From a virus, in the IMG/VR virus record IMGVR_UViG_3300030061_002970: a DNA stretch of 64,000 nucleotides. One strand, written 5' to 3'. Shown here piece after piece: positions 8,167 through 58,668 of this stretch. The translations under genes and the position numbers were made by a program. Numbering within the stretch: the stretch's first letter is position 1; each line of letters starts with the position of its first letter. Under the pieces are notes generated by a model. That model did not search any database. It was not told the DNA's origin and saw nothing but the letters and a program-made list of their open reading frames with translations.

Positions 8167-10008
8167 ATGGCAGAAAAACAAATATCGTACACTGAAAGAG
8201 ATTTTCTAGGGATAAGAAATGAACTATTAAGATTAACTAATACCTATTACCCAGACTTAATACAAAATGCTAATGATGCATCTATATATTCAGTTTTTTT
8301 GGATTTAAACGCTGCAGTAGCGGATAATCTAAACTTTCAAATAGATAGAACATTCCAAGAGACAGTATTACAATTTGCACAAGAAAGAAGTTCTTTATAT
8401 AATTTAGCTAGAACTTATGGTTTAAAAGTTCCCGGTAATAGACCATCAGTAACTGTTGGTGATTTATCAGTAATTGTGCCACCTTTGGGTGATAAAGAAG
8501 ATTTTAAATATTTGGGGTTATTAAGAGCTGGTTCACAATTTAATGGTGGTGGACAAATATTTGAATTAGTGGACGACTGTGACTTTTCCTCACCTTATAG
8601 TGTAGAGGGAATACCTAATCGTACAAAAATACCAAATTTTGATTCTAATGGTATTCTGGTTAACTACACTATAACTAAAAGAGAAGTTTTAGTTAATGGA
8701 ACCACTAAGATATTTAAAAAAGAAATTTTAGATAGTGACAGTAAACCGTTCTTTAAATTATTTTTACCAGAAAAAAATATAATATCCGTAACATCCATTA
8801 TACAGAAAGCAGGATTATCCTATCAGTCACTACCAAACACTTCAGAGTTTATATCACCACTCTCTAATAAGTGGTACGAGGTAGAAGCTTTGGCTCAAAA
8901 TGAGGTATTCGTAGAAGACCCATCTACACCACCGGATAACGTTAGTATGAAAGTTGGTAAATATGTTACGGCACCTCAAAGATTTGTTACAGAATATACA
9001 CCCGAAGGTTTTTTCTTTTTAACATTTGGTGGTGGAAACCAAACGTCTCAAGACCTATTAGACGAATTTAGTTCTAAAGGAGTTAAATTAGATATGTCTA
9101 GGTTTATGAATAACATAGCCTTAGGTGATACAGTAAAAGGGAATACAACCTTATTTATTCAGTATAGAGTTGGTGGTGGTAAAGCATCAAATATAGGTGC
9201 TGGAGCAGTTACTAATGTGGGTACTATAGATTTTGTTGTGGCTGGACCAAGTCAACAAATCAATCAAAGTGTTATTAATAGTTTAGCTGTTAATAATGTA
9301 ACTTCAGCAATAGGAGGTGCTGACCCCATGAATCAAGAAGAAATAAGAAATTATATATCATTTAATTTTGCGGCTCAACAAAGAGCTGTAACAATAAATG
9401 ACTATGTCTCTCAACTAAGAACAATGCCTTCATCATTCGGTGCACCAGCAAAAGCAAGTGCGATGGAAATAGAAAATAAAATTAAGTTAAATGTGTTATC
9501 ATATACACCAGAAGGTACACTAACATCTAACGTTAGTTCTACACTTAAAAATAATATAGCCACATACCTATCAAATCATAGAATGATAAATGATTATATA
9601 ATGGTTGGGTCAGCAAAAGTAATTGATTTAAGTTTTGAAATTGATTTGGTTTTAAATAATGATGTAAATCAGGGTGAAGTGGTGACTAATGTAATTACAA
9701 TCGTTGGTGATTATTTTGGTGTTAGTAAAATAGAAATGGGGCAAGATTTATCTTTAGGTGAATTAAGAAAACAAATAATGAACGAACCTGGTGTCGTCAA
9801 CATAGTAGATATTAGAGTTTATAATAAAGTAGGTGACCCATATTCACAATCAGTTAGTACACAACCATACTCTAACGCTACCACAAAAAAAATAGGGTTA
9901 ATAGATGATACCATTTTCGCACAACCCGATGAAATATTACAAATTAGATTTCCTCAAAAAGACATAGCTGTAAGAACTAAGAGAAATTCTAAACCCACTT
10001 TCTCCTAA
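8167..10008 (+). CDS. baseplate wedge subunit (T4 gp6 / baseplate J-like)
   Basis: YTERDF, FQET.LQFAQERSS.YNLART.G, YRVGGG, GGAD…EEIR…AQQRAVTINDY. Confidence 0.82.
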   Translation: MAEKQISYTERDFLGIRNELLRLTNTYYPDLIQNANDASIYSVFLDLNAAVADNLNFQIDRTFQETVLQFAQERSSLYNLARTYGLKVPGNRPSVTVGDLSVIVPPLGDKEDFKYLGLLRAGSQFNGGGQIFELVDDCDFSSPYSVEGIPNRTKIPNFDSNGILVNYTITKREVLVNGTTKIFKKEILDSDSKPFFKLFLPEKNIISVTSIIQKAGLSYQSLPNTSEFISPLSNKWYEVEALAQNEVFVEDPSTPPDNVSMKVGKYVTAPQRFVTEYTPEGFFFLTFGGGNQTSQDLLDEFSSKGVKLDMSRFMNNIALGDTVKGNTTLFIQYRVGGGKASNIGAGAVTNVGTIDFVVAGPSQQINQSVINSLAVNNVTSAIGGADPMNQEEIRNYISFNFAAQQRAVTINDYVSQLRTMPSSFGAPAKASAMEIENKIKLNVLSYTPEGTLTSNVSSTLKNNIATYLSNHRMINDYIMVGSAKVIDLSFEIDLVLNNDVNQGEVVTNVITIVGDYFGVSKIEMGQDLSLGELRKQIMNEPGVVNIVDIRVYNKVGDPYSQSVSTQPYSNATTKKIGLIDDTIFAQPDEILQIRFPQKDIAVRTKRNSKPTFS

Positions 10009-13100: not shown

Positions 13101-13530
13101 CATGACAGGTATGGATTTAATAGATTGTTTAGCTTATGAATTATCTGGTAGTTCACAAATAGTACCTTATTATCTTTGGAGGGTAGATGGTTCTAGTGGA
13201 TTCGGTACAGAAAATAATGATTGGCAATACACCACAGGTTCATATCAATCACAAACTTATAATTGGACAATACCAGGTACACCATTCATCAATACCGCAC
13301 CACTACTTATACATTCGGGGGATTACCAAAATAATGTAGGTGCGTTGAATAGTTTACCACAACCTGGAACTCCAGGTGACGCATACCCACCTATGACACC
13401 AAACACAGGACCCTCTATATTGTTCTCACAACCATTATTTTATTATTTTGGGTTGAGGCCAGGAGAAACAGCTTATAATAAATTTATTAGATTATATGTG
13501 GATGAAGAATTAGCTAATAGTGTAATATAA
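10111..13530 (+). CDS. large baseplate/tail-associated protein with an N-terminal carboxypeptidase-regulatory-like beta domain, internal hydrophobic helices and a Cys-rich region
   Basis: VVGRV..NGG.GIPNAKVSVFIP…TNEAGDFMLYGVPVG; hydrophobic stretch at about aa 520-583; follows the wedge gene. Confidence 0.6.
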   Translation: MSKSIRVRTQVGKDQKVSFELKQDFDLLEILSLSLSQNDVYTRMCADFGVVVGRVISNGGYGIPNAKVSVFIPIDREDEQNPVIQQLYPYTQPFDTTTDGKRYNLLSKDPNFDCHVAVGSFPSINDVLEKQAIEYVYDKYYKFTAKTNEAGDFMLYGVPVGDQTLVMDVDLSDIGCFSMLPEDFKQLGFPDSDFDGTRFRTDAAIDSLPQIIGQQKSIDVRPFWGDEEFCSAAITRVDFDLSNSGVKIQPTSVLMGSTATDTDKESVNKRCRPRKHMGELCSLTSQPGIIDCIRYTPFFKEDTSAFPEWPYDGTGGGGGQVPVMERFYFDDGGRVIDETGSFLVHIPMNLDHVITDEFGNLVKSNDPSLGVATRARCRFRVRPESSAGTSRQRRRGSHLVPQIREFGPHTDTNGDYPEIGENLVDGDGNNKRYDPYCFSIEYSDYHPWAQANLIPGAKDLFYDMSFNRVYTYSQFHDHVKHNGRRQFIGVKEILPEQDQQCSTSAMFFPINSAVRRAKTIIFLNQFILFFVYGIYLMMSSLIGIIATVFGIIMVVVAIVMVVICMIHDLLSAWGWLASMLGIGPAPTICSQLTWSSSCQPTCTVFGIPSGFILFTLRQKKYPECEECMCRTNVQGINGNDMALLGPGYGWSNDDCEVSTNIWGIERDVVCCPDSYGYDSTTSFPPLNVLGDPTNVNNDLGAGGGCYVKPICMNVACLGFNTNTVLIREWYRREKIFSALCNGIMNYFWENAWVNGFLYQFQFRAKLSYDAGNDTYATPATSYCKKVVYLHPNDHTFYYRCTPFRWQSATTGKFIGDTDGVKGGNNSDNEHSAGDMDRHLYFPTTIVDMGSRNQCIQQICLDEKFAEECSVTDQIGSTSFQDITDLVSDAYNMKARQQNLQLGDLFARPESEIGGDMAQALMQNSMLGVFGYETNTTTTSCDCSVAPAPSIPATGDIEYPLPNNWNDTGVYVDYAVNVNAGYDIQWRPHLFTAGTPTIMTGMDLIDCLAYELSGSSQIVPYYLWRVDGSSGFGTENNDWQYTTGSYQSQTYNWTIPGTPFINTAPLLIHSGDYQNNVGALNSLPQPGTPGDAYPPMTPNTGPSILFSQPLFYYFGLRPGETAYNKFIRLYVDEELANSVI

Positions 13531-15347
13531 TGAGTAATAAAAAAAACATAAGAATTGTTAGGGGCGAATCTAGATTTGCTGGTTCACAAAATAAAGATAT
13601 TAGTTTACAACCTTTATTAACGTCAGAACAACGCCCAATGATTGAGGGGGATAGAAATCTAGTTCTTAATCTTAGAGACCAGTTTGATTTTGAAAGAGAT
13701 TATTCTACAATTTATAGACCATATGGTAAAATAGATGTTTTATATAGTAATAGGATAACAGGTGAAACTAATGACAATAGAGTTTTGGAGTATATGTATT
13801 TTACACCGGATTATATAGGTTGTCCAGATATTACGGTAGCAAGTGTAGGGCAAACTTATTGGAGTGGTCCACCATGTGTCGGATTACCACCATCTGATTT
13901 ATTTACTTTTATGCCACCATATAGATATGGTACAGTAAACGCTTCACAGTATAGTAGTTTGGATTCATACCAAGATAATTGGGTTGCTTATATATCCTAT
14001 ATTTCAGATTGTGATAGTGGTCAAACTATGAGTTTTAGTGTGGGTGATGGTACAGACGGAATAAATTTAAATAGTGGTGATGGGATTCCAGCTCGTATAC
14101 AAGTAATAACTACAAACGGTAAAGAAACAATAAGAATAACAACACCATCACCTCACGGTATATCATCCGGAGAATTTGTAGAATTACAGAGTAGTGCATC
14201 AATCAGTAACTTTGGTGGGGCCACACTAGTCCCAACAGTGCCAATTACTACAGACATAAATAATGTGTCCGTAACCACCAATAAAAACATATTTAATGTA
14301 GATTTTTTGGGTAATGAATTTGCTAATTCAGAAACTCACGTTTTAAATATATACACTAAAGGGATAGACATAACAGCCATACCAACAAATTCTTTTTGTG
14401 TCATAAAACGTATAATAAACATAGACAATATTAATGAAACACGTTCTAGATATTGTAGTCACATCCACACATTAATAACTAACTCTTCAGATTATACATT
14501 GGATAGGACAGGTTTTGAAAATGGTATTTACAATAAAAAAGGTAGGGTTTTTAAGTCTAAAAAAACACCAGATAATTATGGTGATAAAACGGTAATCCTA
14601 GAAGATTTTAAGTCTTTTTTGTGGAATACAAACATGGATGTGGATGTGGAAGAATTTTTAGACAATCTAAATAGACCATTAACTGACTTATACCTAACAA
14701 TATTCCAGACAAATAGAAATCTTATGTGGCATTATGAAGCCCCAGCCAATTCCCCAGCAGGGTACGGATGGGATTGGAATTTTAGACATAACGGATTTGT
14801 AGACCCATTTGTAAATAATGATACCAACCCAACAAACTTATTTCAAAACACAACTAATGGTTTAGACCCGTTACCTTTAAGTGGTACAACATATAGAGGT
14901 GCCTTTGTTGAGTACAACCCTTTTGAATTAAAGGAAAGGGTAGTTTCTGAAATCAAACACTCTTTAAAATTTAATACAGATGCTATGTATGAATTTGCTG
15001 GGTACCCAAATACATCTAGTTCACAAGTACATGTAAAATCTATATACAACTATCAACCACATCACAGAATACCAATACGTAAACTATCAACAACTATAAG
15101 TTATGAAGATAGTCTATTTACAACACCACCATACGCTACCTATTCTTTATCAGAGGGGACTTTTAGGTGGAGACCAATATTACCTATAGATTTTTTTGAA
15201 GATGGGGATAATGGGGTCACTTACCCATATTTAAATGATGCACATTATCCATATTTAAATATAGAATTTAAAATAGAACCTATAATGTTTGGGTATAGCT
15301 CTAGTAGCATAAATGTAGTTTCAGGATTTGTCGATGTCTGCGAATAG
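13530..15347 (+). CDS. putative virion structural protein (baseplate/tail region)
   Basis: TAATG coupling; ITTPSPHGISSGEFV (ubiquitin-activating/ASCH-like 'HG..GD.V' beta motif common in phage tail proteins). Confidence 0.55.
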   Translation: MSNKKNIRIVRGESRFAGSQNKDISLQPLLTSEQRPMIEGDRNLVLNLRDQFDFERDYSTIYRPYGKIDVLYSNRITGETNDNRVLEYMYFTPDYIGCPDITVASVGQTYWSGPPCVGLPPSDLFTFMPPYRYGTVNASQYSSLDSYQDNWVAYISYISDCDSGQTMSFSVGDGTDGINLNSGDGIPARIQVITTNGKETIRITTPSPHGISSGEFVELQSSASISNFGGATLVPTVPITTDINNVSVTTNKNIFNVDFLGNEFANSETHVLNIYTKGIDITAIPTNSFCVIKRIINIDNINETRSRYCSHIHTLITNSSDYTLDRTGFENGIYNKKGRVFKSKKTPDNYGDKTVILEDFKSFLWNTNMDVDVEEFLDNLNRPLTDLYLTIFQTNRNLMWHYEAPANSPAGYGWDWNFRHNGFVDPFVNNDTNPTNLFQNTTNGLDPLPLSGTTYRGAFVEYNPFELKERVVSEIKHSLKFNTDAMYEFAGYPNTSSSQVHVKSIYNYQPHHRIPIRKLSTTISYEDSLFTTPPYATYSLSEGTFRWRPILPIDFFEDGDNGVTYPYLNDAHYPYLNIEFKIEPIMFGYSSSSINVVSGFVDVCE

Positions 15348-16197
15348 AATACAAATAAAAGCGTCATTAAAAAATAAAAAAGTTGTTGTGCCTTTAGGTC
15401 AAATTTTTGATGAAGTAGGTAGAGAACAACTTTTAGAAATGTATGATGAGATAGAGTTACAAAATAATATAAACTATATACAAGATTATGAAACTACTAG
15501 ATACGCACCTAATTACCCACCTAAATTTGAAATATATTACGAATTTGAATTTTGGGATAGTGCAAATTCTACCTATGTCAGTGATTTTAATATATTAGAT
15601 TATAGTAATTCCGAATTAGCAAAAAACGCACAAGCCTTCACTAAAAGCTTTTTTAAATTTGATTTTTTTGATACACCAGTTAGAGAAGAACAAAAACTAC
15701 TATTTTCAACAATAATGCCCACTAATAACTGTAGAAAGAAAAGTGTAGTCATAAACCCAGCAGAAGACCCAGAAGAATATTGGAATCAAAGAAGTGAAGG
15801 TATCAACTTACCACAATATGATATATATACACCAGCGTTCTCTGCTGCATCAGCTCCTGAAGGTGCTAATGAAAATTATTATTTACAATGGTTAAAAGAT
15901 AGAGATTTATTTACTGGTAATACATTTTACATGACCTGTAAATTCTTTAATGGTAAAACTGGTACAGTTATCAGAATGTTAAATCAGTTACCATCACCGA
16001 TACAAGGACAATATAGTTTTGAAGATTTTTTCTATTACCAGATAATTTTAAATATAGAAACTGGTAATACAAACCCAAAATATAATTATACAGTACACCC
16101 GTATAATTCAGTAGCTGGAGCTACTGGAATAACATTAGCACCAGCAGGTGAAACGGTCTTAGGACCAATAAAATTTTATGAATACGTAACTACATAG
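15334..16197 (+). CDS. putative virion structural protein
   Basis: ATG at 15334 preferred over TTG 15328; located in the structural operon. Confidence 0.55.
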   Translation: MSANRIQIKASLKNKKVVVPLGQIFDEVGREQLLEMYDEIELQNNINYIQDYETTRYAPNYPPKFEIYYEFEFWDSANSTYVSDFNILDYSNSELAKNAQAFTKSFFKFDFFDTPVREEQKLLFSTIMPTNNCRKKSVVINPAEDPEEYWNQRSEGINLPQYDIYTPAFSAASAPEGANENYYLQWLKDRDLFTGNTFYMTCKFFNGKTGTVIRMLNQLPSPIQGQYSFEDFFYYQIILNIETGNTNPKYNYTVHPYNSVAGATGITLAPAGETVLGPIKFYEYVTT

Positions 16198-16198
16198 T

Positions 16199-19100
16199 AT
16201 GGATATACAAAAGTTTACAATACGAAGAAATACCCCGGACACTGGGAGTACTGGAACAATACCCTGTACTGGGGGGACAAATTTTTACCCTATAAACCTT
16301 AGTACAAATTGTTCGGGAGACACGATGTATAACTCAACAGGTTCTCAAATAATGAGTGCTTTAGACAGTGGTGTTATGTCTAGTTTTCCGGATGAACTAA
16401 AAGATTGTTCACCTACAATCCCATGTGTTATTTTATGGGACGCGGCACTAAACCCAAGCCCAAATAATTGTTACAATCCAGACGGGTATAGTTATGTTAA
16501 ATTTAAAGGTTTAGTACTTACTTCTGGAGGAACCTTCTACACTGGTAGTTATAATGATTTAATTACAATATATGATGTTACAAACACAAATATAAATCAA
16601 CCGTTAAACTCACAAGGTATTAATGCATTTTGGGGTGAAAGTGTGGAAATATGCAGTTGTTTGGACCCACTAGATGATATTTTATATAAGTTACCCCTAA
16701 CACTAACACAAGACTTCAATGATATAGGGCACTATAGTATTTGGGATGGTAGAATAGACCAACAACAAGTATTTTCTAACTTTACTTTTACAGCTAACAC
16801 TACAGGGAATGGTATGAAAATACAAGTATATAATACAACCAACTTTGGTTCGTATAAAGAATTCCAACAATCCTCATATAGAATTGATTGGGGTGAATGT
16901 GATTGTTCTATACCAGTTAATGCTAACGGTTATCCTTGTTGTGAAGATTTACAATATCCATCCTTAACAAGTGAATATGAATATGTAAATCCATCACAAT
17001 ATAGTATTAAGATAACCCATGAAGGTCCATGGGGACCAACGTCTGTCAGTCAAATAATAACAGTACCCAACCTAACCTATACTCAAATATTAGCACAACC
17101 ATTTTCATCAGCACCACCAACAGGAGCTGGAATGGGTGGAGCTGCGGTAGGAGCAGGGGTAGCACTATCACCAACAACACCAGGAGGTGACCCATATCAA
17201 GTAAATTTAAGTGGTCCTAACCCAACACCATCAGTAACACCACCACCAATGTTTACCTCAACAGCGTATCACGGTACTTACGGTACTATTGGTACACCAA
17301 ACTATTACCCTTTAGATTCTGGTACTAACATAAATCAATATAGTGGTACCTCTATAGGTTGTTTTGAACTTACGGGTATCACAGAAAGTTCAGTAGGTAT
17401 ATTTTCTACATATAGTAATACACCATCTACCACAGCTCCAGGATTTTTACCTAATGGGTTTGAAAAATTTGTCACAGTACCTGTTGGTGGTGACGTTATA
17501 GACCCATTAACTAACACTATAACAGCAGGTATGGTGGGGGAGATATTCGAAGCAAATGCAATATACACTGGATATACAATATCTTCCGCAAATGGACAAA
17601 CTCCTATAGATTTTTATGACTTTCCAAATGGAATAACAATTTTTGTGGCTACTAGTTGTGGTTTAAATTCTTTAGCGTTTGGTGGTGAAGATTGTTTTGA
17701 ATGTCCCGAAGAAACTTGTGAATTTTGTTTAACTAAAGATGAATATATTGATAGGGTTACACTCACAGTAGAAACTATAACACCTAATCCACCATCTAGT
17801 CCACCTAATTGGTCACCTTTTGTAGATTATGTTAAAGGAGATATCGTATATGATGTAACACCACAGTCTTGTTGTTGTTATATTGCTGTGACAGATATAA
17901 CACAAACAAGTAATGTTGGAGGTAACAGTCCATTCGCAGGAATACTACCACACCAACTATATCAAGGTGTCTATGTTAATCCTACTGGACCTGATGTACA
18001 TGTGTGGGAAGGTTGTACACCTGATTGTGTGAGTTGTCCTACAGGAAGTGCTTTACCTTGTGAAGACCCTTATAATATTTTTAATGCATATTCACCTATG
18101 GGTGCTATTGGAATAGCGGGACAGTGGAATAACACACAAGTTTTTAACGCTGGTGAGTTTATATATGGTCCAGACGGAAATTGTTATAGAGCAATAAATA
18201 ATGTGCCAGCTGGTATCGTACCAACAGCCACTACTAACGTGACAAGTTGGGATTACGTGGGATGTGCAAGTTGGGTGTGTCCACAAGATTTAACAAATGT
18301 TGGTCCTGACGTTTGTGAATTAATTTCAGGGAGTACTCCTAATAGTTTTACTTTCTACGCGGGACCAGGAGGCTGTCTAACCGCATATAATAATGGTAAT
18401 TGTCCTGTAGATGATAGATGGCATTGCCCAAACCAATATAATTGTGACACACCTGGATGTATACAAATAGATTACACACATCCACAATATAATAATCCTG
18501 GTTACCCACTATCAGTTACTTTTTCATCAATGACAGACTGTGAAGACTGGTGTAACCCAATAGCTTGGTCATGTACAACACCAACAAATACACCATGTTG
18601 TTCTGAAGTTTCGTGTGCTGCTTTACCAGATTCAGACTATTATGATATAATGACAAATTATATACTTGCTACACCACAAGTAACTGCCACTAATAACCAA
18701 CTATTCCTAGACCCATTTTACACTTTAAATGATTGTGAAACTGGTGTCCCAGGACAAGGAATATCCGCATGTTGTGATTTTACAGCTTGGGAATATTTTT
18801 GTGACACAGGGTGTGTACAAATAACAGGTGGTAATTATCCCACTTCTGGTGATTGTGCAAGTGACCCAAATAATCTAGGTGGTTTACCAGGTCCTTGTGG
18901 TTGGGACTGTTATGACCCCTGGTACCAACCATGTAGTGGTGGTACCGGTTTTCCTGGTAGTACTACTTGTGTACCTTGTTATACTAATGGTTGTGGGCAA
19001 TACAATACCTCAGCAGATTGTTGTACCTATTGTAACCCACCATTAACTGACTGTTGGGTTTGTTTAAGTGGTTCAGCTACACCATGTCAAAATCTAGCAC

Positions 19101-22100
19101 CTTGTCCTACACCATTACCAACTTGGGAGGCGGACTGGGCTATTGACCCAGCACTTGTACCATTAAGTGGGTTTGGAGCAAATCCAAATCCTACAGACCC
19201 AACCTTAGCTTTACTATATCCAAATGGGTCCTACGCTACTGCACAAGATTGTGATGATAATTGTCCTACAGACGGTGGTATAGATTGTTTAGTTAGTTTA
19301 ACTAATGGTAGTAGTTATGGTAATTGTGCAAATTATCCAAACCCAGTTGCATTACCTAGTGGTTGGGGTTGGTCACCTGGAGGCCCTTATGATTCTTATT
19401 CAGCTTGTTGTATAGCAACAGGTTGTTGTGATATAGAGTGTGATGAAAACTCTTCGATATTTAATCCAATGAGTGGATTATATGACCCATCATGGCCATA
19501 TTGGCCTTGTGTTTACACTCCTGTTGCAGTAGGAAGTGCTAATATACCTTGTAGTCCTTTAGGGCCAATATATTGTACATTTACAGAATGTGTGACAGCC
19601 AATCCAAATGGTTGTATTCCTGACGGAGAAACTTGTGAGTGTGCGTGTGACCCATTTACTGGTGGTGTTGGTGTAGACCAAGAAGAGTGGGATAGTACAT
19701 ATAATAACTATCAACAATATGATTATGTATCTTGGCAAGTAGGAGCACCTGATGTTTGTTGTTATTATTGTGATGTACCATCAGGTAGTAATCCTTACGT
19801 GGGTCCACCAGCAGGATTTTATGATTGTAATTATTTTATACCTGGAGGGCCAGACGCACCAAACGGAACACCAAATGCTTGGATTAGTTGTGGTAGTACC
19901 CCAAGTGGAAATACGGTTGGTGGTTGTGACCCATGTCAACAAGTTTCCGGGGATACCTATAGTTGTGACTTTATTGATGGTTGTGTTCTTAATGTTATAC
20001 CGTGTAATTTTGTTCTAGGTTCAGAAGCAGCTAACAACTGTTATACTGCTAGTACATGTATGGACCACTGTAGGGCAGGTTGTTTTTGTGATGATAATGG
20101 TACACCATCAGACCCTTCGGATGATTTTACAGATTGTGTAATGCAACAGGATGTTATAAATGGAGTAACGACCAACTCATCAAGTTGGTACGGGTTTTTA
20201 AGTGTGTGGCAGTGTCAACAAGGCATACTAGCACCACCACCAAGTAATTTAGATTGTTGTTCTGGTGCAACTAGTAAATTTCATTGTGACGATACTGAAT
20301 GGTGTAGTTCATTAAACCCTTGTGTAGCACCTGATGGTTGTGGATGTATAGAAGTTTTTCCTGGAGACCCACTGTATCCTACAGCAGCTTATACTACTTT
20401 ATCCGACTGTCAACAAAATTGTAAGTGGGCTTGTGACCCTTCGTCAACCGGAGGACAATGTCAATTTGTAGGTAATAATCCATTAAACTTATTTCCAGAA
20501 CATACTTCAGCTTTTGACTGTTGGTCCAATACAAATAACTGTAACTGTACAGCACCTTCAGTTTATTTTTGTGATACGAATGCTGGACAATCAGCAACTA
20601 CTACAAATTGTTTCCCAGAAACTACCATAGTAAGTTGGATTGCTACACCACCTTTCCCAGGATGGACCCAAAATCAAGTATTTGGGCAACAGGGTACTGG
20701 TACACCTTATCCAGCTGGTGCTACTGGATTCGCTTCCTTGGGGGACTGTCAAGCAGCTTGTAGATTTTGTTGTGACACAAATGTTAGTTGTACTTGTGAC
20801 TTAAACCCGTATAACTTTTCCTGTGCGTTATCTATAGGAGATTGTATAAGTTTACAAGCTCAATATCCTTGTTGTCCACAAACAACAGAATATTGTTGTG
20901 ATGAAACATTAGGGTGTATAAGTTTTGTTGGTACGATGCCAGCAAGTTGTGTACACGGACCATTTGCAACACCAACCCAGTGTCAAGACGAGTGTAATTT
21001 TATATGTGGAGAATGTAAACCAGATTTAGGTGCTACAGCACAACCAGACCCATGTCACTGTAGTCTTATAACTATACCATTTTATTCAGCAGTACCACCA
21101 TATGGTGCTTGTACAGCTTATAATACTTTAGCAGACTGTATAGCCAATTCTTACCCATTAGGTGGTACAGGTTCTAATAATACTACATGTTGTCCGTGTG
21201 AAGATTGTAAAACAGCAGGTAGTGTTACATTCCCAATAATTGACGCTGGTGGTACTTGGTCATTAAGTAACGTTGCAATACCAATGCCAATAGTAGGTAG
21301 TGTACTTGCAACCCCAGCATGGACTCCGGGGGTAAGTTATACTATAGGTGATGTTGTAATTGACGGTGGTGGAAGTGGAGGAACATTAACTAGTTGTTGT
21401 TTTGTTATGGTGTATGACCAATATGACCCTGCTTTACATAGTTCTATGAATCCACACGAATGGTATGATGCATACGCGAATGAATTAGCAAATAATACAC
21501 CTAGTACATTTCCTGGTGGACAACCAAATGGAGGATACCCAATGTGGGTACCGTGTGACACCAGTTGTCCTACCACAGCTGCAACTCCTACGATGTATGA
21601 ATGTCTTCCAGGGCAACCAATATACACTGGTCCTTGTATGAACGCAACTCTGCAATACCCAATAAATCCAGTAGGAAATACTGGGTACGGAGCGATGGGT
21701 ATTAATGCAGGAACCAGTTCCTGGTCGTTTCCTCAAATATTTTTTGATTGGATAGTACAAACTTTCCCACCAAATACGGCATTTGCTAGTAAAAAAGCTG
21801 TGAGTCCAAACGCTGTCAATGCTTCCTGCCCTAATCCTGACCCTAATCAGTATGGTGGTGCTGGTGGAATGTTTCTGACACGACCTAGTTGTCATTCTCA
21901 AAATGTTATATATACCACAGCAAATGGATGTCCCCAGTCTGTACCTTTCCTTGATTGGAATGAGGCTATCACTTGGTTAAATCAGGTTAATACAAATCTA
22001 GGTTTACCAACAACATTTAATACGGGTATGAATGTACAAGAAGCAAGAGATGAAATGACTAGTTATGGGGAAACAAATGTCGGGCTTTTCGCTGGTTCGT

Positions 22101-24148
22101 CTAGTTGTCAATGTTCACAAGTAGGACCATGTTCTTGTCAACAATGTACTAGTGGACTTAACTGTGTATATCCAAATTTAACATTATGTAATTTAGCAGC
22201 AACTGCAACTCCTTGTTGTCAACCACCACAAACAGGATACTATGTTTGTGATACAGGAAATCCAAACCCAGGTACTGGAGTTTGTCCTTGTGTGTGGGAC
22301 GCAAATGCTATTGTGGGGTATAATTCTATCTCAGATTGTACAGGTGACACCAGTACATGTTGCTATCAACCAACTCCAACAATGTGGAAATGTAACCCTT
22401 ATTCAGCAACTACATCAGGATGGTCAGGTTGGGATGGTTATTTACAACAGATGAATACTGTGGGGACTACAGCGTTAAATCATTTTACTATAGACGTTGC
22501 AGATGCTCAATATCTAGTATTAATGGGGCAGTCTCAAGCATACGCCAATACAATAATAAATGCAGGGTATTTCCCAGATGAACTAACAGCTTTACAAGTG
22601 TTTTTTGCTAAAGCTAGAGGATTGGGTTATGATTTTGATGGTCCTGGTTCTACATTGGCTGGTGCTAGTCTTAGTGCTTACTACTTTGGTCTTGCAAATT
22701 ATGTTAGTCATGTACAATGTTTTCCATATACAACACAACCAGGATTACAACAATCTCCTGACTGTTTTGCACAAGTAGCGGATGGTACCTATCGTTTGAA
22801 AAGACTGCTAGTGAATACTACCATCCCATCTATACTTGGTGGTGGTGGTAACGTTCTTATCTACTTTAGTGAGAATACTTATTGGTATAATGTGATGATG
22901 GGAAATACATCATGTCTAACCAATGCCAGTCTGAATATAATCTACAGTCCGAGTCAGGCGGGTAGTCCTCAGTATAGTCCTGATGGATATCTTCTTGACC
23001 TTGCATTACTTATTAGTACCATAAATAATGACCCTAATATACCTTGTAATGGTCCTTCAGCACCTACTACAGCACTTAAGGTTATTTCTCTACCAATGTG
23101 TACACCACCATGTGAATGTTACCAAGACCCTAGTGGTGTATATAGTTCACTGTCACAATGTGAACTAGACCCAACAAATTGTTGTGATACAATTATACCA
23201 GATAGTTGGGATTGTGTTAATTGTCCGGGAACATGTAATTGTTTAGACCCAGGAACTGGACTAGGTGTGTATACAACACTTAATGATTGTTTAACTGATT
23301 GTGTAAACCCACTTACACAAGGTTGTGAAGATTGTGATATTACCTTAGCTAATGTTTTAACTTCACAAGCAATCTATTTGGGTGGATGGGACCCACTCAC
23401 CCAATATAATTTAAGTGAGTGTGTAGTTTCTGATGATGATGATTGTTGTTATTGTTGTGTACCAGCAGGGCCTACACCAAATAGTGCAAACCCATACACT
23501 TCTCAAAGTCTACAAACTATGTTATTTCAAGTTGCTGCAGCTTCAGTATGTAAAGATGGTCAAGGAGACCCTAGTTCTATCATAGGTATAAATATTGGTG
23601 GTGGAATGTGGTTACCGTGTAACGTTGATGTTAATAATAACCCATGTGGTACTTCACCCATTGTAGAATGTGAGGACTGTAATACGACACTATATAACGA
23701 TTTACCAACACCAGTAACTTTCCCACACCAATCAATTAATACAGCATATACTTCTGTACCATTTCAATTAGGTCAATGTATATATAATGTAGACCCTACA
23801 AAAATAAACGAAAATTGTTGTTGGTGTTGTGGTTGTGAATTTGGTTGGGATAGTGTTGATAACAAATGTTTAGAACCAGGTCCTATCGGCCCTGCTGGAC
23901 CTGGTGGACCAAGTTTACCAACAGCTAAGTCTGCACAATATAGTTCAGTAATGCCACCACCTTGCCAAATTATTAATATGGACCCAGGTACTGGTGACCC
24001 TAACAGTGGTGATTTTATAGTTAATAATGGTACCTATAATAGTGCGTGGTTACCTTGTGGTGTTAATAGTCTAAATAATCCTTGTGGTGGTGCAAATAGT
24101 TCATCCTCATCATCCATACAACCGGACTCATCTATAGTACCTTTTTAA
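16199..24148 (+). CDS. giant (2649 aa) cysteine-rich modular virion protein, probable fibre/adhesin: PKD-like N-terminal part, CBM5/12-like motifs, many (W/Y)xC…GC…Y.SL..C…C repeats
   Basis: Single long ORF; YRIDWG…YEY..P.QY PKD-like motif; repeated Cys modules; no signal peptide. Confidence 0.7.
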   Translation: MDIQKFTIRRNTPDTGSTGTIPCTGGTNFYPINLSTNCSGDTMYNSTGSQIMSALDSGVMSSFPDELKDCSPTIPCVILWDAALNPSPNNCYNPDGYSYVKFKGLVLTSGGTFYTGSYNDLITIYDVTNTNINQPLNSQGINAFWGESVEICSCLDPLDDILYKLPLTLTQDFNDIGHYSIWDGRIDQQQVFSNFTFTANTTGNGMKIQVYNTTNFGSYKEFQQSSYRIDWGECDCSIPVNANGYPCCEDLQYPSLTSEYEYVNPSQYSIKITHEGPWGPTSVSQIITVPNLTYTQILAQPFSSAPPTGAGMGGAAVGAGVALSPTTPGGDPYQVNLSGPNPTPSVTPPPMFTSTAYHGTYGTIGTPNYYPLDSGTNINQYSGTSIGCFELTGITESSVGIFSTYSNTPSTTAPGFLPNGFEKFVTVPVGGDVIDPLTNTITAGMVGEIFEANAIYTGYTISSANGQTPIDFYDFPNGITIFVATSCGLNSLAFGGEDCFECPEETCEFCLTKDEYIDRVTLTVETITPNPPSSPPNWSPFVDYVKGDIVYDVTPQSCCCYIAVTDITQTSNVGGNSPFAGILPHQLYQGVYVNPTGPDVHVWEGCTPDCVSCPTGSALPCEDPYNIFNAYSPMGAIGIAGQWNNTQVFNAGEFIYGPDGNCYRAINNVPAGIVPTATTNVTSWDYVGCASWVCPQDLTNVGPDVCELISGSTPNSFTFYAGPGGCLTAYNNGNCPVDDRWHCPNQYNCDTPGCIQIDYTHPQYNNPGYPLSVTFSSMTDCEDWCNPIAWSCTTPTNTPCCSEVSCAALPDSDYYDIMTNYILATPQVTATNNQLFLDPFYTLNDCETGVPGQGISACCDFTAWEYFCDTGCVQITGGNYPTSGDCASDPNNLGGLPGPCGWDCYDPWYQPCSGGTGFPGSTTCVPCYTNGCGQYNTSADCCTYCNPPLTDCWVCLSGSATPCQNLAPCPTPLPTWEADWAIDPALVPLSGFGANPNPTDPTLALLYPNGSYATAQDCDDNCPTDGGIDCLVSLTNGSSYGNCANYPNPVALPSGWGWSPGGPYDSYSACCIATGCCDIECDENSSIFNPMSGLYDPSWPYWPCVYTPVAVGSANIPCSPLGPIYCTFTECVTANPNGCIPDGETCECACDPFTGGVGVDQEEWDSTYNNYQQYDYVSWQVGAPDVCCYYCDVPSGSNPYVGPPAGFYDCNYFIPGGPDAPNGTPNAWISCGSTPSGNTVGGCDPCQQVSGDTYSCDFIDGCVLNVIPCNFVLGSEAANNCYTASTCMDHCRAGCFCDDNGTPSDPSDDFTDCVMQQDVINGVTTNSSSWYGFLSVWQCQQGILAPPPSNLDCCSGATSKFHCDDTEWCSSLNPCVAPDGCGCIEVFPGDPLYPTAAYTTLSDCQQNCKWACDPSSTGGQCQFVGNNPLNLFPEHTSAFDCWSNTNNCNCTAPSVYFCDTNAGQSATTTNCFPETTIVSWIATPPFPGWTQNQVFGQQGTGTPYPAGATGFASLGDCQAACRFCCDTNVSCTCDLNPYNFSCALSIGDCISLQAQYPCCPQTTEYCCDETLGCISFVGTMPASCVHGPFATPTQCQDECNFICGECKPDLGATAQPDPCHCSLITIPFYSAVPPYGACTAYNTLADCIANSYPLGGTGSNNTTCCPCEDCKTAGSVTFPIIDAGGTWSLSNVAIPMPIVGSVLATPAWTPGVSYTIGDVVIDGGGSGGTLTSCCFVMVYDQYDPALHSSMNPHEWYDAYANELANNTPSTFPGGQPNGGYPMWVPCDTSCPTTAATPTMYECLPGQPIYTGPCMNATLQYPINPVGNTGYGAMGINAGTSSWSFPQIFFDWIVQTFPPNTAFASKKAVSPNAVNASCPNPDPNQYGGAGGMFLTRPSCHSQNVIYTTANGCPQSVPFLDWNEAITWLNQVNTNLGLPTTFNTGMNVQEARDEMTSYGETNVGLFAGSSSCQCSQVGPCSCQQCTSGLNCVYPNLTLCNLAATATPCCQPPQTGYYVCDTGNPNPGTGVCPCVWDANAIVGYNSISDCTGDTSTCCYQPTPTMWKCNPYSATTSGWSGWDGYLQQMNTVGTTALNHFTIDVADAQYLVLMGQSQAYANTIINAGYFPDELTALQVFFAKARGLGYDFDGPGSTLAGASLSAYYFGLANYVSHVQCFPYTTQPGLQQSPDCFAQVADGTYRLKRLLVNTTIPSILGGGGNVLIYFSENTYWYNVMMGNTSCLTNASLNIIYSPSQAGSPQYSPDGYLLDLALLISTINNDPNIPCNGPSAPTTALKVISLPMCTPPCECYQDPSGVYSSLSQCELDPTNCCDTIIPDSWDCVNCPGTCNCLDPGTGLGVYTTLNDCLTDCVNPLTQGCEDCDITLANVLTSQAIYLGGWDPLTQYNLSECVVSDDDDCCYCCVPAGPTPNSANPYTSQSLQTMLFQVAAASVCKDGQGDPSSIIGINIGGGMWLPCNVDVNNNPCGTSPIVECEDCNTTLYNDLPTPVTFPHQSINTAYTSVPFQLGQCIYNVDPTKINENCCWCCGCEFGWDSVDNKCLEPGPIGPAGPGGPSLPTAKSAQYSSVMPPPCQIINMDPGTGDPNSGDFIVNNGTYNSAWLPCGVNSLNNPCGGANSSSSSSIQPDSSIVPF

Positions 24149-24154
24149 TTTAAA

Positions 24155-24733
24155 ATGATTATGGAATATGGGAAACATAAAAAATATGAAATAGGGTACA
24201 TCAAAGTAGATAAAAAAATTTATATGCCTACAGTAGAAAGGTTAGATAAATGGGTTGATATAATATCTAAAAAAAAATGGTATAATAATTTTGAATTTTA
24301 TATTACAGGTTCTTTTACAAGTCACATAATGAAAATAAGACCTTTTTGGCCTACATGGGATGTAGACATGGTTGTAACACAAGAAGAAGGTAAAGAATTG
24401 GACTATGATTTAATTAAAAGAGTCTTACTGGAATCTGTTGAGGTTGCTTTAATAGATTGTGATTTTTGGATGGACCTAAGTTTCCAAAGAAAAAAAGATA
24501 TATGGGGGTTAAAACCAGGACAATCACTAAATAACGCAGCCACTCATATAGTAAAAGCAATCAAATATAGTAATAAAGGTAAGGTAGAACTAACTAAAGA
24601 TTTGTGGGAAATACACAGAGAGTTTCCCCTAAAAAAACATATAGCAAGAAATAAGTTTGGTTTTAAATACGGCAAACTAATTTCAATAAAAGAATACAAA
24701 GAAAAATATTATAAACAAAATGTGTCAGTATAA
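24155..24733 (+). CDS. Pol-beta superfamily (minimal) nucleotidyltransferase-like protein
   Basis: FYITGSF…TWDVDMVV…WMDLSF matches hG[GS]-x-DhDh plus a third Asp. Confidence 0.6.
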   Translation: MIMEYGKHKKYEIGYIKVDKKIYMPTVERLDKWVDIISKKKWYNNFEFYITGSFTSHIMKIRPFWPTWDVDMVVTQEEGKELDYDLIKRVLLESVEVALIDCDFWMDLSFQRKKDIWGLKPGQSLNNAATHIVKAIKYSNKGKVELTKDLWEIHREFPLKKHIARNKFGFKYGKLISIKEYKEKYYKQNVSV

Positions 24734-24746
24734 ATTATTACTGGGA

Positions 24747-24753
24747 TATTTAT
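24747..24753 (+). promoter_or_regulatory. TATTTAT putative late promoter
   Basis: 20 nt before the ATG at 24767. Confidence 0.6.
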
Positions 24754-24766
24754 AATAAAATAATAG

Positions 24767-24988
24767 ATGGGATTTAAAAAAATTTTTAGAAATGGTTGTA
24801 TACCACCTTTAACAAAAGAAGAGGTTTTAATGAATGTTTGTGAAAGACCAGAAACCAGGTCTAACATATTTATTGAAAGAGGTAAAATAACCGTCTTTGA
24901 AAAACCCCAAAGACTAGGACAAACACCAAATTTAGGTGAGTTAGAGTTACATGGATATGGGTTTTATAAAATTAATAAACAACCTTAA
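24767..24988 (+). CDS. small structural-module protein (possibly the detached C-terminal domain of the 16199 protein)
   Basis: LTKEEVL…SNIFIERGK…QRLG…LGEL…GYGFY; has its own TATTTAT motif. Confidence 0.65.
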   Translation: MGFKKIFRNGCIPPLTKEEVLMNVCERPETRSNIFIERGKITVFEKPQRLGQTPNLGELELHGYGFYKINKQP

Positions 24989-24990
24989 AA

Positions 24991-25899
24991 ATGGCATTAG
25001 GAGCATACGGAATAAAAAGACCAGCTGACGTACTTCCAGACGACGTACAAATTATTGTACACTACACACCAAGTAGGGACGCAACCTCTAATTTTGTAGT
25101 TTCACAATTACCAGCAAATACCTTATTAACACCACATTACCACCAAAATAATACTGGTGGGGCAAACGGTGTTGAAATTCTAGGTGGACTATATGATTTA
25201 CAATTACCATCCAACGTCTTCGCAGCTAAAGGAATTTATACAATTTATATTAGACCAGTAGAGATAAGAACTACTATAATAGATTGTGGTATCTTAGCTT
25301 CTCTACCAAACGTAAAAGGACTTGTCTTTGATTTAAATAATGTACCAGCAGCATATAGAAGTAGATTTAAACCACATTCCTTAGTGGGTTATAGAATAGA
25401 ATACTTACAAGCAAATGGAGAAAAAATACATAACTTTTTTAGAATAGTAACATCTAATTTTTATTGTGAACCAGTAGCAGCAAATCTAACAAACCCAAAT
25501 CAGGTAGCACCAAGATACGTCTACACAAATACTGAAACAAATTTAATATTTTGTACACTAACACCAACAAGTGCCCCATCAAATAATCCTAACGCGATTC
25601 CATTTATAGGGCAACCGGGACAAAACGTTATAATTACAAATACTTTTTTCAACCCAATTGTTTTAGATGTAGAAATGGTAGACCATGACTTTGACACTTT
25701 AGCTATTGCATTATACGGTAACCAATCTAAATCAATAGACGACGGAATCTACACCCTTTACGACTTTAACCAAAATATCTATCAACAATACGATTTATAT
25801 GAGGTTAGAGACCAATTTAATGACCAATTATACGAAATTAGAGCGAATAGAGGTAACAATATAGATTTTAGTAAGACATTTAGTACAATAAACGTTTAA
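24991..25899 (+). CDS. putative virion structural protein
   Basis: 302-aa beta-rich ORF in the structural operon. Confidence 0.6.
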   Translation: MALGAYGIKRPADVLPDDVQIIVHYTPSRDATSNFVVSQLPANTLLTPHYHQNNTGGANGVEILGGLYDLQLPSNVFAAKGIYTIYIRPVEIRTTIIDCGILASLPNVKGLVFDLNNVPAAYRSRFKPHSLVGYRIEYLQANGEKIHNFFRIVTSNFYCEPVAANLTNPNQVAPRYVYTNTETNLIFCTLTPTSAPSNNPNAIPFIGQPGQNVIITNTFFNPIVLDVEMVDHDFDTLAIALYGNQSKSIDDGIYTLYDFNQNIYQQYDLYEVRDQFNDQLYEIRANRGNNIDFSKTFSTINV

Positions 25900-56013: not shown

Positions 56014-56527
56014 ACAAATTCTTTTGTGTAACACAAACAGAAATAGCAAAGATTTCCTAAACTCAATAAAATTTAGATTAAACGGTAACTATAAGAAAGT
56101 ACCAAATTACCTAATAGAAAAAAGTGGTAAAATAAATAATTTAAATAAAGAAGACGTGACACCCTATTTTTTAGACGGATACACCAATAAAGGAGTGGTT
56201 GTTGTTTGTTTGGAAAATGTTGGTTGGTTAAAAAGAAGAAGGGTAGATGGTAAGTTTGTTGACTGGTTAGGTGATATTTATAATAATAAAGTCCATGAAA
56301 AAAAATGGAGAGGTAAACATTTTTGGGATATTTATAGCAATAAACAGATGGAAAGTACTTTAAAACTGGTTAAAGATATTTGTAAGAAACAAAACATACC
56401 ACAAGATTTTATAGGGCATAATGTTCTAGTTGATGGGATAGAAAATTTTAAAGGTATAGTTTCTCGAAGTAACTATAATGAATATTGGACCGACATAAAC
56501 CCATCTTTTAATTTTGAACTATTATGA
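55970..56527 (+). CDS. N-acetylmuramoyl-L-alanine amidase (Amidase_2)-like protein, possibly degenerate
   Basis: KQILLCNT, PNYLI.KSG.I, VCLENVG, YS.KQ..S..KL…IC, GHN, TDINP; ATG at 55970. Confidence 0.6.
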   Translation: MKKIKTHSNTKVESKQILLCNTNRNSKDFLNSIKFRLNGNYKKVPNYLIEKSGKINNLNKEDVTPYFLDGYTNKGVVVVCLENVGWLKRRRVDGKFVDWLGDIYNNKVHEKKWRGKHFWDIYSNKQMESTLKLVKDICKKQNIPQDFIGHNVLVDGIENFKGIVSRSNYNEYWTDINPSFNFELL

Positions 56528-58642: not shown

Positions 58643-58647
58643 ATAGA

Positions 58648-58654
58648 TATTTAT
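58648..58654 (+). promoter_or_regulatory. TATTTAT putative late promoter
   Basis: 21 nt before the ATG at 58669. Confidence 0.6.
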
Positions 58655-58668
58655 AATAAAAAGAAATT

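What the first reader, a model, noticed from the sequence alone, without database searches (positions are those of the whole stretch)
17729..24988. Apparent gene fission: conserved C-terminus detached as a 73-aa gene, with a duplicated junction motif
Seen: the non-repetitive N-terminal part of the giant protein ends …IDFYDFPNGITIFVATSCG…C-LTKDEY (17729-46). The 73-aa ORF begins …CIPP-LTKEEV (24809-26) and has its own TATTTAT motif. From memory only (not searched), related huge-phage baseplate proteins run continuously from 'YYDF..G.TIF' into 'ITK.E.L….PE.QS..FIERGK…RLG….L..YGYG'. Inference: about 2100 aa of Cys modules were grafted at this point, and the essential C-terminal piece was rescued as a separate late gene that complements in trans, giving a baseplate anchor with a free C-terminal display end.
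Basis: inference. Interest (0 to 1): 0.7.

Follow-up and report, generated by a model that had tools for sequence, protein, structure and literature searches.

The report
Split phage baseplate gene, 73-aa remnant
In this uncultured marine phage, a baseplate-block protein that is one ~360-residue chain in relatives has gained ~2,100 cysteine-rich residues and been cut in two, so its conserved last 60 residues are now a separate 73-residue gene; relatives preserve the intermediate stages.

Summary
The observation and the core interpretation hold.

In syntenic uncultured relatives, one 351-377-aa protein runs from a PKD-containing N-domain straight into a 60-aa C-module. The N-domain matches giant aa 164-513. 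The C-module matches the 73-aa protein at 52-72% identity.

Gene order is the same in every relative examined: gp6-like, 1139, 605, 289, X, 302, 1134.

Natural intermediates exist:
- unsplit proteins with 135-756-aa inserts at exactly this junction;
- adjacent gene pairs cut at eight other points inside the insert.

Trees place all Cys-insert forms in one clade, apart from at least four short-form lineages. Fission is therefore most likely the derived state.

The 73-aa gene is under strong purifying selection (dN/dS 0.02-0.24). A conserved promoter-like motif precedes it. The giant's distal end evolves fast (dN/dS 0.5-0.9).

Not shown:
- that the LTKDEY/LTKEEV pair is a true duplication;
- that the 73-aa protein acts in trans;
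- where in the baseplate these proteins sit.

This is a solid case of a known kind of event in an unnamed family.

The parts
8167..10008 (+). Context gene: gp6-like baseplate wedge protein (613 aa). It marks the start of the conserved structural block.
   Evidence: PHROG 6 'baseplate wedge subunit' at E 2.8e-16 and Pfam Baseplate_J at 29.1 bits, above its cut-off. Syntenic in all relatives.
13530..16197 (+). Two conserved upstream neighbours (605 aa at 13530-15347; 289 aa at 15328-16197). They precede gene X in every relative.
   Evidence: blastp synteny table. No Pfam or PHROG name.
16199..24148 (+). Giant ORF (2649 aa), the first half of the split gene X: a 163-aa N-terminal extension, the N-domain, then a Cys-rich tail.
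   Evidence: Present at 2440-2991 aa in 21 distinct relatives.
16688..17665 (+). N-domain (about aa 164-489; BLAST alignment runs to aa 513). It is homologous to aa 54-294 of the single-chain 360-aa relatives and contains a PKD-like 'DWGxxD' domain.
   Evidence: blastp E 4e-18 to L036 (360 aa), 1e-43 to L077, 3e-34 to L081. HMM end point. PKD fold in the relative's model, VIA Z 9.9, rmsd 2.5 over 79 aa to 4l9d.
17717..17755 (+). Junction motif C-x2-C-LTKDEYIDR (LTKDEY at 17729-17746). It is conserved as C..C[LTE][TE]KDEY.[DN]R in every giant aligned.
   Evidence: Alignment of 22 giants. PSSM rank 1. Absent at this position in the other split or insert-bearing forms.
17756..24145 (+). Cys-rich tail (about 2,130 aa; 8.5% Cys, 10% Pro, 0.7% Lys) occupying the ancestral N-domain/C-module junction. 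Its distal third evolves fast.
   Evidence: Composition. dN/dS rises from 0.07-0.14 (aa 1-1500) to 0.47-0.87 (last 650 aa). C-termini are unrelated between subclades.
24155..24733 (+). Optional 192-aa ORF lodged between the two halves, with a GS...DVD nucleotidyltransferase-like motif. It is not part of gene X.
   Evidence: Present in L001-4, L006-7 and, as a 210-aa homologue (E 3e-26), in L021. Absent in L005, L008, L013 and others. No Pfam or PHROG hit.
24745..24761 (+). Conserved promoter-like motif GATATTTATAATAAAAT. It ends 5 nt before the ATG of the 73-aa gene.
   Evidence: The 8-mer ATATTTAT is invariant in all giant-clade relatives while the flanks diverge, and most read AGATATTTAT[AT]ATAAAA. 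The same 11-mer stands 12 nt before the ORF at 58669; it also occurs at 56273, and a variant (GTATTTATTAT) lies just upstream of the ORF at 7704. Absent from the split, short and unsplit-insert relatives scanned.
24767..24988 (+). 73-aa gene, the second half of split gene X. A 10-aa new head, a Cys, then the C-module (aa 11-72, nt 24797-24982).
   Evidence: 52-72% identical to the C-termini of single-chain and split relatives, E 1e-19 to 3e-31. dN/dS 0.02-0.24. Shares the Cys pair and 'RPETRS' with group-I second-half proteins.
24991..25899 (+). Highly conserved 302-aa downstream neighbour. It follows the C-module gene in every relative and is a candidate partner.
   Evidence: 57-79% identity across all architectures. 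Synteny. AF2 pLDDT 76, with no clear PDB match.

Best explanation
Gene X of a conserved baseplate/tail-fibre block was ancestrally a single ~360-aa protein. It had two conserved modules, an N-domain containing a PKD fold and a 60-aa C-module, joined by a short permissive linker. In one lineage the linker took up a cysteine-rich variable region. The open reading frame was later broken inside that region, at different points in different sub-lineages.

In the window's clade the break lies about 10 residues upstream of the C-module. The first gene therefore carries the N-domain plus about 2,100 aa of variable region ending in a free, fast-evolving C-terminus. The C-module is made alone, as a 73-aa protein, from a start codon preceded by a conserved promoter-like motif.

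Shown: homology of both pieces to adjacent parts of single proteins, positional orthology, the intermediates, strong constraint on the 73-aa gene and the rate gradient along the giant.

Inferred: both conserved modules dock in the baseplate (or on each other), so the insert was a loop anchored at both ends. Cutting it anywhere then leaves both halves attached, and the 73-aa protein still does the C-module's assembly job in trans.
For: (1) Homology. Giant aa 165-513 aligns to aa 54-326 of L036 (360 aa) at E 4e-18. The 73-aa protein (aa 12-71) aligns to aa 300-359 of the same protein at 52% identity, E 1e-20.
(2) Synteny. The order gp6-like, 1139, 605, 289, X, 302, 1134 holds in all 30 loci examined, including a distant short-form lineage.
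(3) Census. Most hits that span the junction, among the best 150 representatives of 50%-identity clusters, are single chains with a 5-32-aa linker. Three have inserts of 135, 189 and 740 aa at the junction. The 740-756-aa unsplit form is seen on contigs of two lineages about 70% identical to each other.
(4) Split pairs have tail/head lengths of 88/782, 205/850, 207/904, 238/791, 296/846, 316/688, 459/416, 553/164 and 625/1005 aa. The window clade has about 2,000-2,500/12-17.
(5) Polarity. In the careful tree of the 302-aa neighbour, all Cys-insert forms are one clade (98/97) and short forms make up at least four other lineages, one on a long branch. In the N-domain tree, 16-18 deep short forms lie outside a 99% clade holding everything else.
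(6) The 73-aa gene has dN/dS 0.02-0.24. The giant's last 650 aa have 0.47-0.87.
(7) A conserved motif lies upstream of the 73-aa ATG in all giant-clade contigs.
(8) In the AF2 monomer model of the single-chain form the C-module is poorly defined (pLDDT 38-55). That fits a module that folds only in a complex.
Against: No tree is rooted. If the root lay on or inside the Cys-insert clade, the short forms could be secondary fusions after loss of the insert. No structure, interaction or virion data exist, so 'anchor' and 'works in trans' are untested. No cultured phage carries the family. Fold searches identified only the PKD domain, so the position in the baseplate is unknown. The promoter role of the motif is inferred from conservation and placement only. 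A looser window-wide count was not enriched (11 observed against 7.9 expected).
Confidence: 0.85

Rival explanations
1. The polarity is reversed. The ancestor was a two-gene, insert-bearing arrangement, and the short single-chain proteins arose by deletion of the insert and gene fusion.
For: All trees are unrooted. In the 302-aa tree the Cys-insert forms are one side of a single well-supported branch, so a root on that branch would leave the ancestral state ambiguous.
Against: Short forms occupy at least four lineages, including a long-branch distant group with the same synteny. They are far more diverse, with dozens of 50%-identity clusters. Unsplit forms carrying inserts exist. Repeated precise fusions that restore the same 5-10-aa linker are less parsimonious than one insertion followed by splits.
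Confidence: 0.08
2. The fission is real, but the C-module is not an anchor. It is an assembly or oligomerisation element, like a C-terminal intramolecular chaperone or a foldon. After the split it acts as a separately encoded chaperone, like the tail-fibre assembly genes that lie downstream of fibre genes, and may not remain in the virion.
For: It always sits at the extreme C-terminus of the last polypeptide. It is a small gene directly downstream of a huge fibre-like gene. The monomer model is disordered.
Against: In the giant clade it is no longer attached to any chain that it could fold in cis, yet it is more conserved than anything around it except the 302-aa protein. No Pfam or PHROG chaperone family matches it. 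In the split pairs the N-domain protein lacks the module altogether.
Confidence: 0.25
3. The two ORFs are still expressed as one protein, by stop-codon readthrough, frameshifting or splicing, or the stop codon is an assembly error. There would then be no functional fission.
For: None found.
Against: The same architecture appears on 21 or more distinct contigs from different samples. The gap between the genes is 50-680 nt, falls in differing frames, and often contains a whole extra gene. A conserved promoter-like motif and a conserved ATG precede the 73-aa ORF. The giants' C-termini are unrelated between subclades.
Confidence: 0.02
4. The LTKDEY/LTKEEV pair is a true duplication of the ancestral junction strand. 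It would have been made when the insert arrived or when the break moved, and kept because each half needs its own copy.
For: It is the best PSSM match in the whole giant and sits where the C-module would start. The motif is conserved in all giants. A Cys lies 4 residues before the L in both copies. Lys is rare in the tail (0.7%).
Against: Sister group-I N-proteins carry other residues at the aligned place (CLGIQSE, CLGPQLV, CNVDQIY). Group II and all unsplit insert forms have the motif only once, before the C-module. L028 (group II) shares an 'EEY.D' that is similar to the giants' 'DEY.D' at about the same place, which suggests that part belongs to the insert's first module. Only 4-6 residues are shared.
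Confidence: 0.35

Closest known systems
Single-chain 'gene X' proteins of uncultured marine myovirus-like contigs (e.g. L036 360 aa, L033 359 aa, L092 359 aa; unnamed, no Pfam or PHROG family)
   Same: The same N-domain and C-module, and the same position between the 289-aa and 302-aa genes in the baseplate block.
   Different: They are one polypeptide with a 5-10-aa linker. The window has about 2,100 aa inserted and the C-module on a separate gene.
Unsplit insert-bearing forms (P0038/L085 1139 aa, L084 1156 aa; P0011/L087 545 aa; P0021 495 aa)
   Same: An insert at exactly the same junction. P0038 and L084 carry a Cys-rich insert and the same Cys pair around LTKEEV.
   Different: They are still a single ORF. 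The inserts are shorter and not detectably similar in sequence to the giant's tail.
Split pairs in groups I and II (L077 1253+748, L081 1044+1064, L082 986+225, L083 873+476, L028 567+851 and others)
   Same: N-domain on the first gene and C-module at the end of the second, with the genes adjacent. Group I is the sister of the window clade.
   Different: The break lies mid-insert, with a 10-70-nt gap in most pairs (a 4-nt overlap in L082) and no promoter-like motif. In the window the break is at the far end, so the second gene is reduced to the bare module.
Tail-fibre adhesin or chaperone genes encoded downstream of fibre genes (T4 gp37/gp38, lambda stf/tfa, Mu and P2 fibre assembly genes); from general knowledge, not tested here
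   Same: A small gene immediately downstream of a very large receptor-binding-type gene, presumed to act on or with it in trans.
   Different: No sequence or profile similarity. Here the small gene is demonstrably the detached C-terminus of the large gene's ancestor.
T4 baseplate periphery genes downstream of gp6 (gp7-gp12); from general knowledge
   Same: Location downstream of a gp6/Baseplate_J homologue in a block of large structural genes.
   Different: No sequence or fold match of X or its 302-aa neighbour to any solved baseplate protein. Correspondence is unknown.

Membership tests
Gene X family (unnamed): N-domain + C-module protein of the gp6-linked structural block | N-domain homologous to aa ~50-295 of the single-chain forms | tested here: met
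   Giant aa 164-513: blastp E 4e-18 to L036 and 1e-43 to L077. The HMM built from short forms hits all giants.
Gene X family (unnamed) | C-module (ITKxEvL...PE.QS..FIERGK...RLGE...YGYGF) at a C-terminus | tested here: met
   73-aa ORF aa 11-72, 52-72% identity, E 1e-19 to 3e-31.
Gene X family (unnamed) | Position between the 289-aa and 302-aa homologues, downstream of the gp6-like gene | tested here: met
Gene X family (unnamed) | Both modules on one polypeptide | tested here: not met
   Stop at 24146-24148. A 618-nt gap holding another ORF separates the two genes. This is the finding itself: a split variant.
PKD domain (Pfam PF00801/PF18911) | Profile match above the gathering score | tested here: inconclusive
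   Single-chain relatives score 17.9-23.4 bits, below the cut-offs of 23.5 and 27. The window's giant gives no Pfam hit. The fold of the relative's model matches PKD domains (VIA Z 9.9, rmsd 2.5, 79 aa to 4l9d; Foldseek E 2.5e-4 to 6aem).
CBM5/12 carbohydrate-binding module (PF02839) in the Cys-rich tail | Profile match above the gathering score | tested here: not met
   The best hits are E 0.09-0.14 and 13 bits against a 26.2 cut-off, covering 15 residues only. A 'G.W....Y..GD.V....CC[YF]' motif resembles it by eye, which is a lead only.
Tail-fibre assembly chaperones / gp38-type adhesins | Profile or sequence similarity of the 73-aa protein | tested here: not met
   No Pfam or PHROG family at E<=0.01. 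No tblastn match in 50,697 phage records at E<=10.
T4-type baseplate proteins gp7-gp12 | Sequence or fold similarity of X or the 302-aa neighbour | tested here: inconclusive
   No listed match beyond Ig/PKD and a generic beta-barrel (Z<=6.7). The models are of moderate confidence.

The most novel reading that the evidence does not exclude
The two halves are a natural split-protein system. The 73-aa module, possibly through the junction strand that both halves retain, re-binds the giant's N-domain and/or the 302-aa protein non-covalently. This frees the huge variable region from a two-ended loop into a free-ended, rapidly evolving host-binding arm. The break point has moved along the insert during evolution as a way of tuning how the variable region is displayed.
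Probability: 0.3. Interest if true: 0.6.

Novelty: new variant of a known kind. Interest (0 to 1): 0.5.

Why it matters
This is an unusually complete natural series for how a phage structural gene grows and breaks. It runs from short single chain, to insert at a permissive junction, to cuts at many places, to a minimal 73-aa remnant gene. All stages sit in the same genomic slot.

The series defines a 60-aa module and an N-domain as the constant parts of a baseplate-block protein. Everything between them is exchangeable, likely host-facing payload.

That helps annotation. A tiny orphan ORF and a giant orphan ORF become two halves of one known gene. It also points to a site where foreign domains are tolerated.

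It does not overturn current ideas. Modular exchange and fission or fusion in phage tail genes are expected.

Tried and rejected
- Pfam and PHROGs gave nothing for the giant, the 73-aa, 192-aa, 302-aa, 605-aa, 289-aa (one sub-threshold PHROG of unknown function) and 1134-aa proteins.
- tblastn of the 73-aa protein, giant aa 1-534 and the 360-aa relative against 50,697 GenBank phage records found no match. The nearest cultured phages, found through the gp6-like gene, are only 26-29% identical: Flavobacterium phage immuto and Microcystis phage Mel-JY01.
- Foldseek and VIA-align on the AF2 model of the 360-aa relative found only the PKD/Ig domain. A profile search against PDB sequences also found only PKD.
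- The AF2 model of the 302-aa neighbour gave no convincing match: Foldseek E>=0.02 and VIA Z<=6.7.
- ESM Atlas on the 302-aa protein scored <=0.85 and was not usable.
- I looked for homology between the heads and tails of other split pairs and the giant's tail, to test whether the break point had shifted. Only one weak hit, covering the first module, appeared.
- Readthrough or frameshift rejoining is rejected because frames and gap lengths differ between relatives.
- The odd fusions P0110, P0153 and P0099 (a foreign N-terminus plus the C-module) were considered. P0110 is not reproduced on any IMG/VR contig, and its C-terminal part belongs to an ordinary 376-aa X on L158. I treated these as probable chimeric assemblies.
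- Two literature searches for gene fission in phage baseplate or tail-fibre genes returned nothing.


Full report
**1. What is in the window**

On the + strand the order of ORFs is:
- 605 aa (13530-15347);
- 289 aa (15328-16197);
- a 2649-aa ORF (16199-24148);
- 192 aa (24155-24733);
- 73 aa (24767-24988);
- 302 aa (24991-25899);
- 1134 aa (25906-29310).

LTKDEY is aa 511-516 of the giant, at nt 17729-17746. LTKEEV is aa 15-20 of the 73-aa ORF, at nt 24809-24826. TATTTAT lies at 24747-24753.

Upstream, the 613-aa ORF at 8167-10008 is a gp6/Baseplate_J-type wedge protein. Elsewhere the window encodes DnaB, RNR, UvsX-like, primase and SbcC-like proteins. The DNA is therefore from a large myovirus-like phage of about 31% G+C. 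Its nearest cultured relatives are only 26-29% identical in gp6.

None of the proteins around the finding has a significant Pfam or PHROG match, and none of the three used as queries matched GenBank phages.

**2.

IMG/VR contigs supplied 38 loci for the 73-aa protein and 45 for giant aa 1-534.

In the close relatives (L001-L026) the arrangement is the window's: a giant of 2440-2966 aa followed by a 73-77-aa gene. The 190-212-aa ORF between them is optional.

In more distant relatives the 73-aa homologue is never free. It is the C-terminus of a 359-360-aa protein, or of an 842-963-aa Cys-rich protein.

The 360-aa protein of L036 aligns with giant aa 165-513 over its aa 54-326 (E 4e-18). It aligns with the 73-aa protein over its aa 300-359 (52% identity, E 1e-20). 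Its sequence runs '...YYDYPDGTTLYMENSSGL(12 aa)ITKQEVLLDMVSSPEIQSEVFIERGK...RLGE...YGYGFYKINKV'.

**3. Positional orthology**

The order gp6-like, 1139, 605, 289, X, 302, 1134(1307) is kept in the 22 loci. It is also kept in eight loci of a more distant short-form lineage. Only X changes.

**4. The series of architectures**

- (a) A single chain of 351-377 aa, or 304-475 aa in the distant lineage, with a 5-32-aa linker. This describes most hits that span the junction among the best 150 representatives of 50%-identity clusters in a 1.8-billion-protein library (491 hits at E<=1e-3).
- (b) A single chain with an insert exactly at the linker: 135 aa (P0021), 189-194 aa (P0011, L087-89), and 740-756 aa, Cys-rich (P0038 = L085, and L084). 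The last form is seen in two lineages about 70% identical to each other.
- (c) Adjacent gene pairs, with the N-domain plus a tail on the first gene and a head plus the C-module on the second:

| Locus | First gene (aa) | Second gene (aa) |
|---|---|---|
| L031 | 421 | 842 |
| L032 | 535 | 911 |
| L034 | 542 | 963 |
| L028 | 567 | 851 |
| L030 | 635 | 906 |
| L077 | 1253 | 748 |
| L083 | 873 | 476 |
| L082 | 986 | 225 |
| L081 | 1044 | 1064 |

- (d) The window clade, with a tail of about 1,960-2,530 aa and a head of only 12-17 aa.

In the unsplit insert forms the ITK.E motif occurs once, after the insert. The insertion point therefore lies between '...SSGL' and 'ITKEE'.

**5. Polarity**

A careful tree of the 302-aa neighbour (42 rows) puts every Cys-insert form into one clade, with support 98/97. 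That clade comprises group I (the giants, which are monophyletic at 100/99, plus L077, L081, L082 and L083) and group II (the L028-type pairs plus the unsplit L084).

The short forms make up at least four other lineages. One is a long-branch distant group.

The N-domain tree (128 rows) places 16-18 deep short-form representatives outside a 99% clade that holds everything else.

The trees are unrooted. Unless the root lies on or inside the Cys-insert clade, the short single chain is ancestral, the Cys-rich insert arrived once, and splitting followed. Splitting then happened at least twice, or once with a re-fusion in L084/85.

The C-module alignment refines this. The 73-aa proteins share the Cys pair (C-x3-LTKEEV-x4-C) with all insert-bearing forms. 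They share 'RPETRS' specifically with the group-I second-half proteins. The 73-aa gene therefore looks like a group-I second-half gene whose head has shrunk to about 10 residues, rather than a piece cut directly from a short ancestor.

I could not detect similarity between the other lineages' heads or tails and the giant's tail. Whether the break point moved or the head was simply lost stays open.

**6. Both genes are real and under different regimes**

The 73-aa gene has dN/dS 0.02-0.24 against ten relatives.

Along the giant, dN/dS changes as follows:
- 0.07-0.18 over aa 1-1500;
- 0.33-0.49 over aa 1501-2000;
- 0.47-0.87 over the last 650 aa.

The giants are collinear at 32-38% identity to about aa 1800-2060, but their C-termini are unrelated.

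So a fast-evolving free end sits immediately next to one of the most conserved small genes of the block.

**7. Expression signal**

In every giant-clade relative the 8-mer ATATTTAT is invariant, and most contigs read AGATATTTAT[AT]ATAAAA. The motif starts about 19-23 nt, and ends within about 10 nt, upstream of the 73-aa ATG. The rest of the intergenic DNA has diverged.

In the window the same 11-mer stands 12 nt before the ORF at 58669. It also occurs at 56273, and a variant lies just upstream of the ORF at 7704.

The other split, short and unsplit-insert relatives lack it at this position. Their two genes are 10-70 nt apart in most pairs and overlap by 4 nt in L082.

Its role as a promoter is inferred from conservation and placement. 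A looser window-wide count is not enriched.

**8. The 'duplicated junction motif'**

C..C[LTE][TE]KDEY.[DN]R is conserved in all 22 giants aligned.

A PSSM made only from short forms ranks it first in the window's giant, at 12.7 bits against 2.4 for the next best. It ranks 1-3 in 18 of the 19 giants scanned. It lies where the C-module would begin.

Against a true duplication:
- sister group-I proteins have other residues at the aligned place;
- group II and the unsplit forms have no such copy;
- L028 (group II) shares an 'EEY.D' similar to the giants' 'DEY.D' at about the same place.

I rate a real duplication at about one in three.

**9. Structure and function**

The AF2 model of the 360-aa relative has mean pLDDT 70. 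It has a confident PKD-like domain (aa 84-170) and a second beta domain (aa 222-290). The C-module is undefined (pLDDT 38-55).

Fold and profile searches recover only PKD/Ig domains. The model of the 302-aa neighbour (pLDDT 76) has no convincing match.

The tail's resemblance to CBM5/12 is at motif level only (Pfam E about 0.1).

The mechanistic reading therefore rests on anatomy:
- both modules are retained in every architecture;
- the linker tolerates 135-756 aa without a break;
- breaks are tolerated at many positions.

This is what one expects if the insert is a loop between two docked modules. That the 73-aa protein assembles in trans is inferred, not shown.

**10. Verdict**

The fission interpretation is supported at about 0.85 confidence.

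It is a new variant of a known kind of event, in an unnamed protein family of uncultured marine phages. Its unusual feature is that the intermediates are preserved.

The nearest held record, G001, has one copy of each module.

Noticed in passing
window 24155-24733: A 192-aa ORF with a GS...DVD (minimal nucleotidyltransferase-like) motif sits between the two halves of gene X. A 210-aa homologue (E 3e-26) occupies the same slot in the L021 subclade. Other giant-clade contigs (L005, L008, L013 and others) lack it. No Pfam or PHROG match.
   Followed up: partly
L092:7080-7637: In a short-form relative, the gap between gene X and the 302-aa gene holds an ORF with an HNH-endonuclease-like signature (a C..C pair, then '...QLDHIIPIS...'). 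The slot just after gene X seems to collect mobile or accessory genes.
   Followed up: no
window 24745-24761, 56273-56283, 58646-58656, about 7686: A recurrent (G)ATATTTAT[AT]ATAA motif lies 12-23 nt upstream of several ATG starts. It is a candidate promoter of this phage group and is fully conserved before the 73-aa gene in all relatives.
   Followed up: partly
window 16199-24148: There is a steep gradient of dN/dS along the giant gene, from about 0.1 in the first 1500 codons to 0.5-0.9 in the last 650. The C-terminal sequences are unrelated between subclades.
   Followed up: yes
L027:5926-7627 compared with L028:5924-7627: The N-domain gene is one 567-aa ORF in L028. In the otherwise near-identical L027 it is broken into 174 + 376 aa, either a frameshift or sequencing error or a further recent split.
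   Followed up: no
L028, L030, L031, L034, L085 (N-termini of the N-domain proteins): Group-II N-domain proteins carry an extra N-terminal C..C...C....C segment ('CxNCFF...GxCxYW...W C') that is absent from the short forms and the giants. It is possibly a small zinc- or disulfide-stabilised domain.
   Followed up: no
P0153, P0110, P0099 (library proteins): The C-module appears fused to unrelated N-termini, one resembling a phosphoglycerate mutase. P0110 could not be reproduced on any IMG/VR contig, so these are probably chimeric assemblies.
   Followed up: partly
P0090 (522 aa, library protein): A single-chain gene X with a roughly 250-aa insert at a different site (after the PKD domain). The insert carries a 'GNQEWL...YNGYA' type motif. 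This shows a second permissive insertion point.
   Followed up: no
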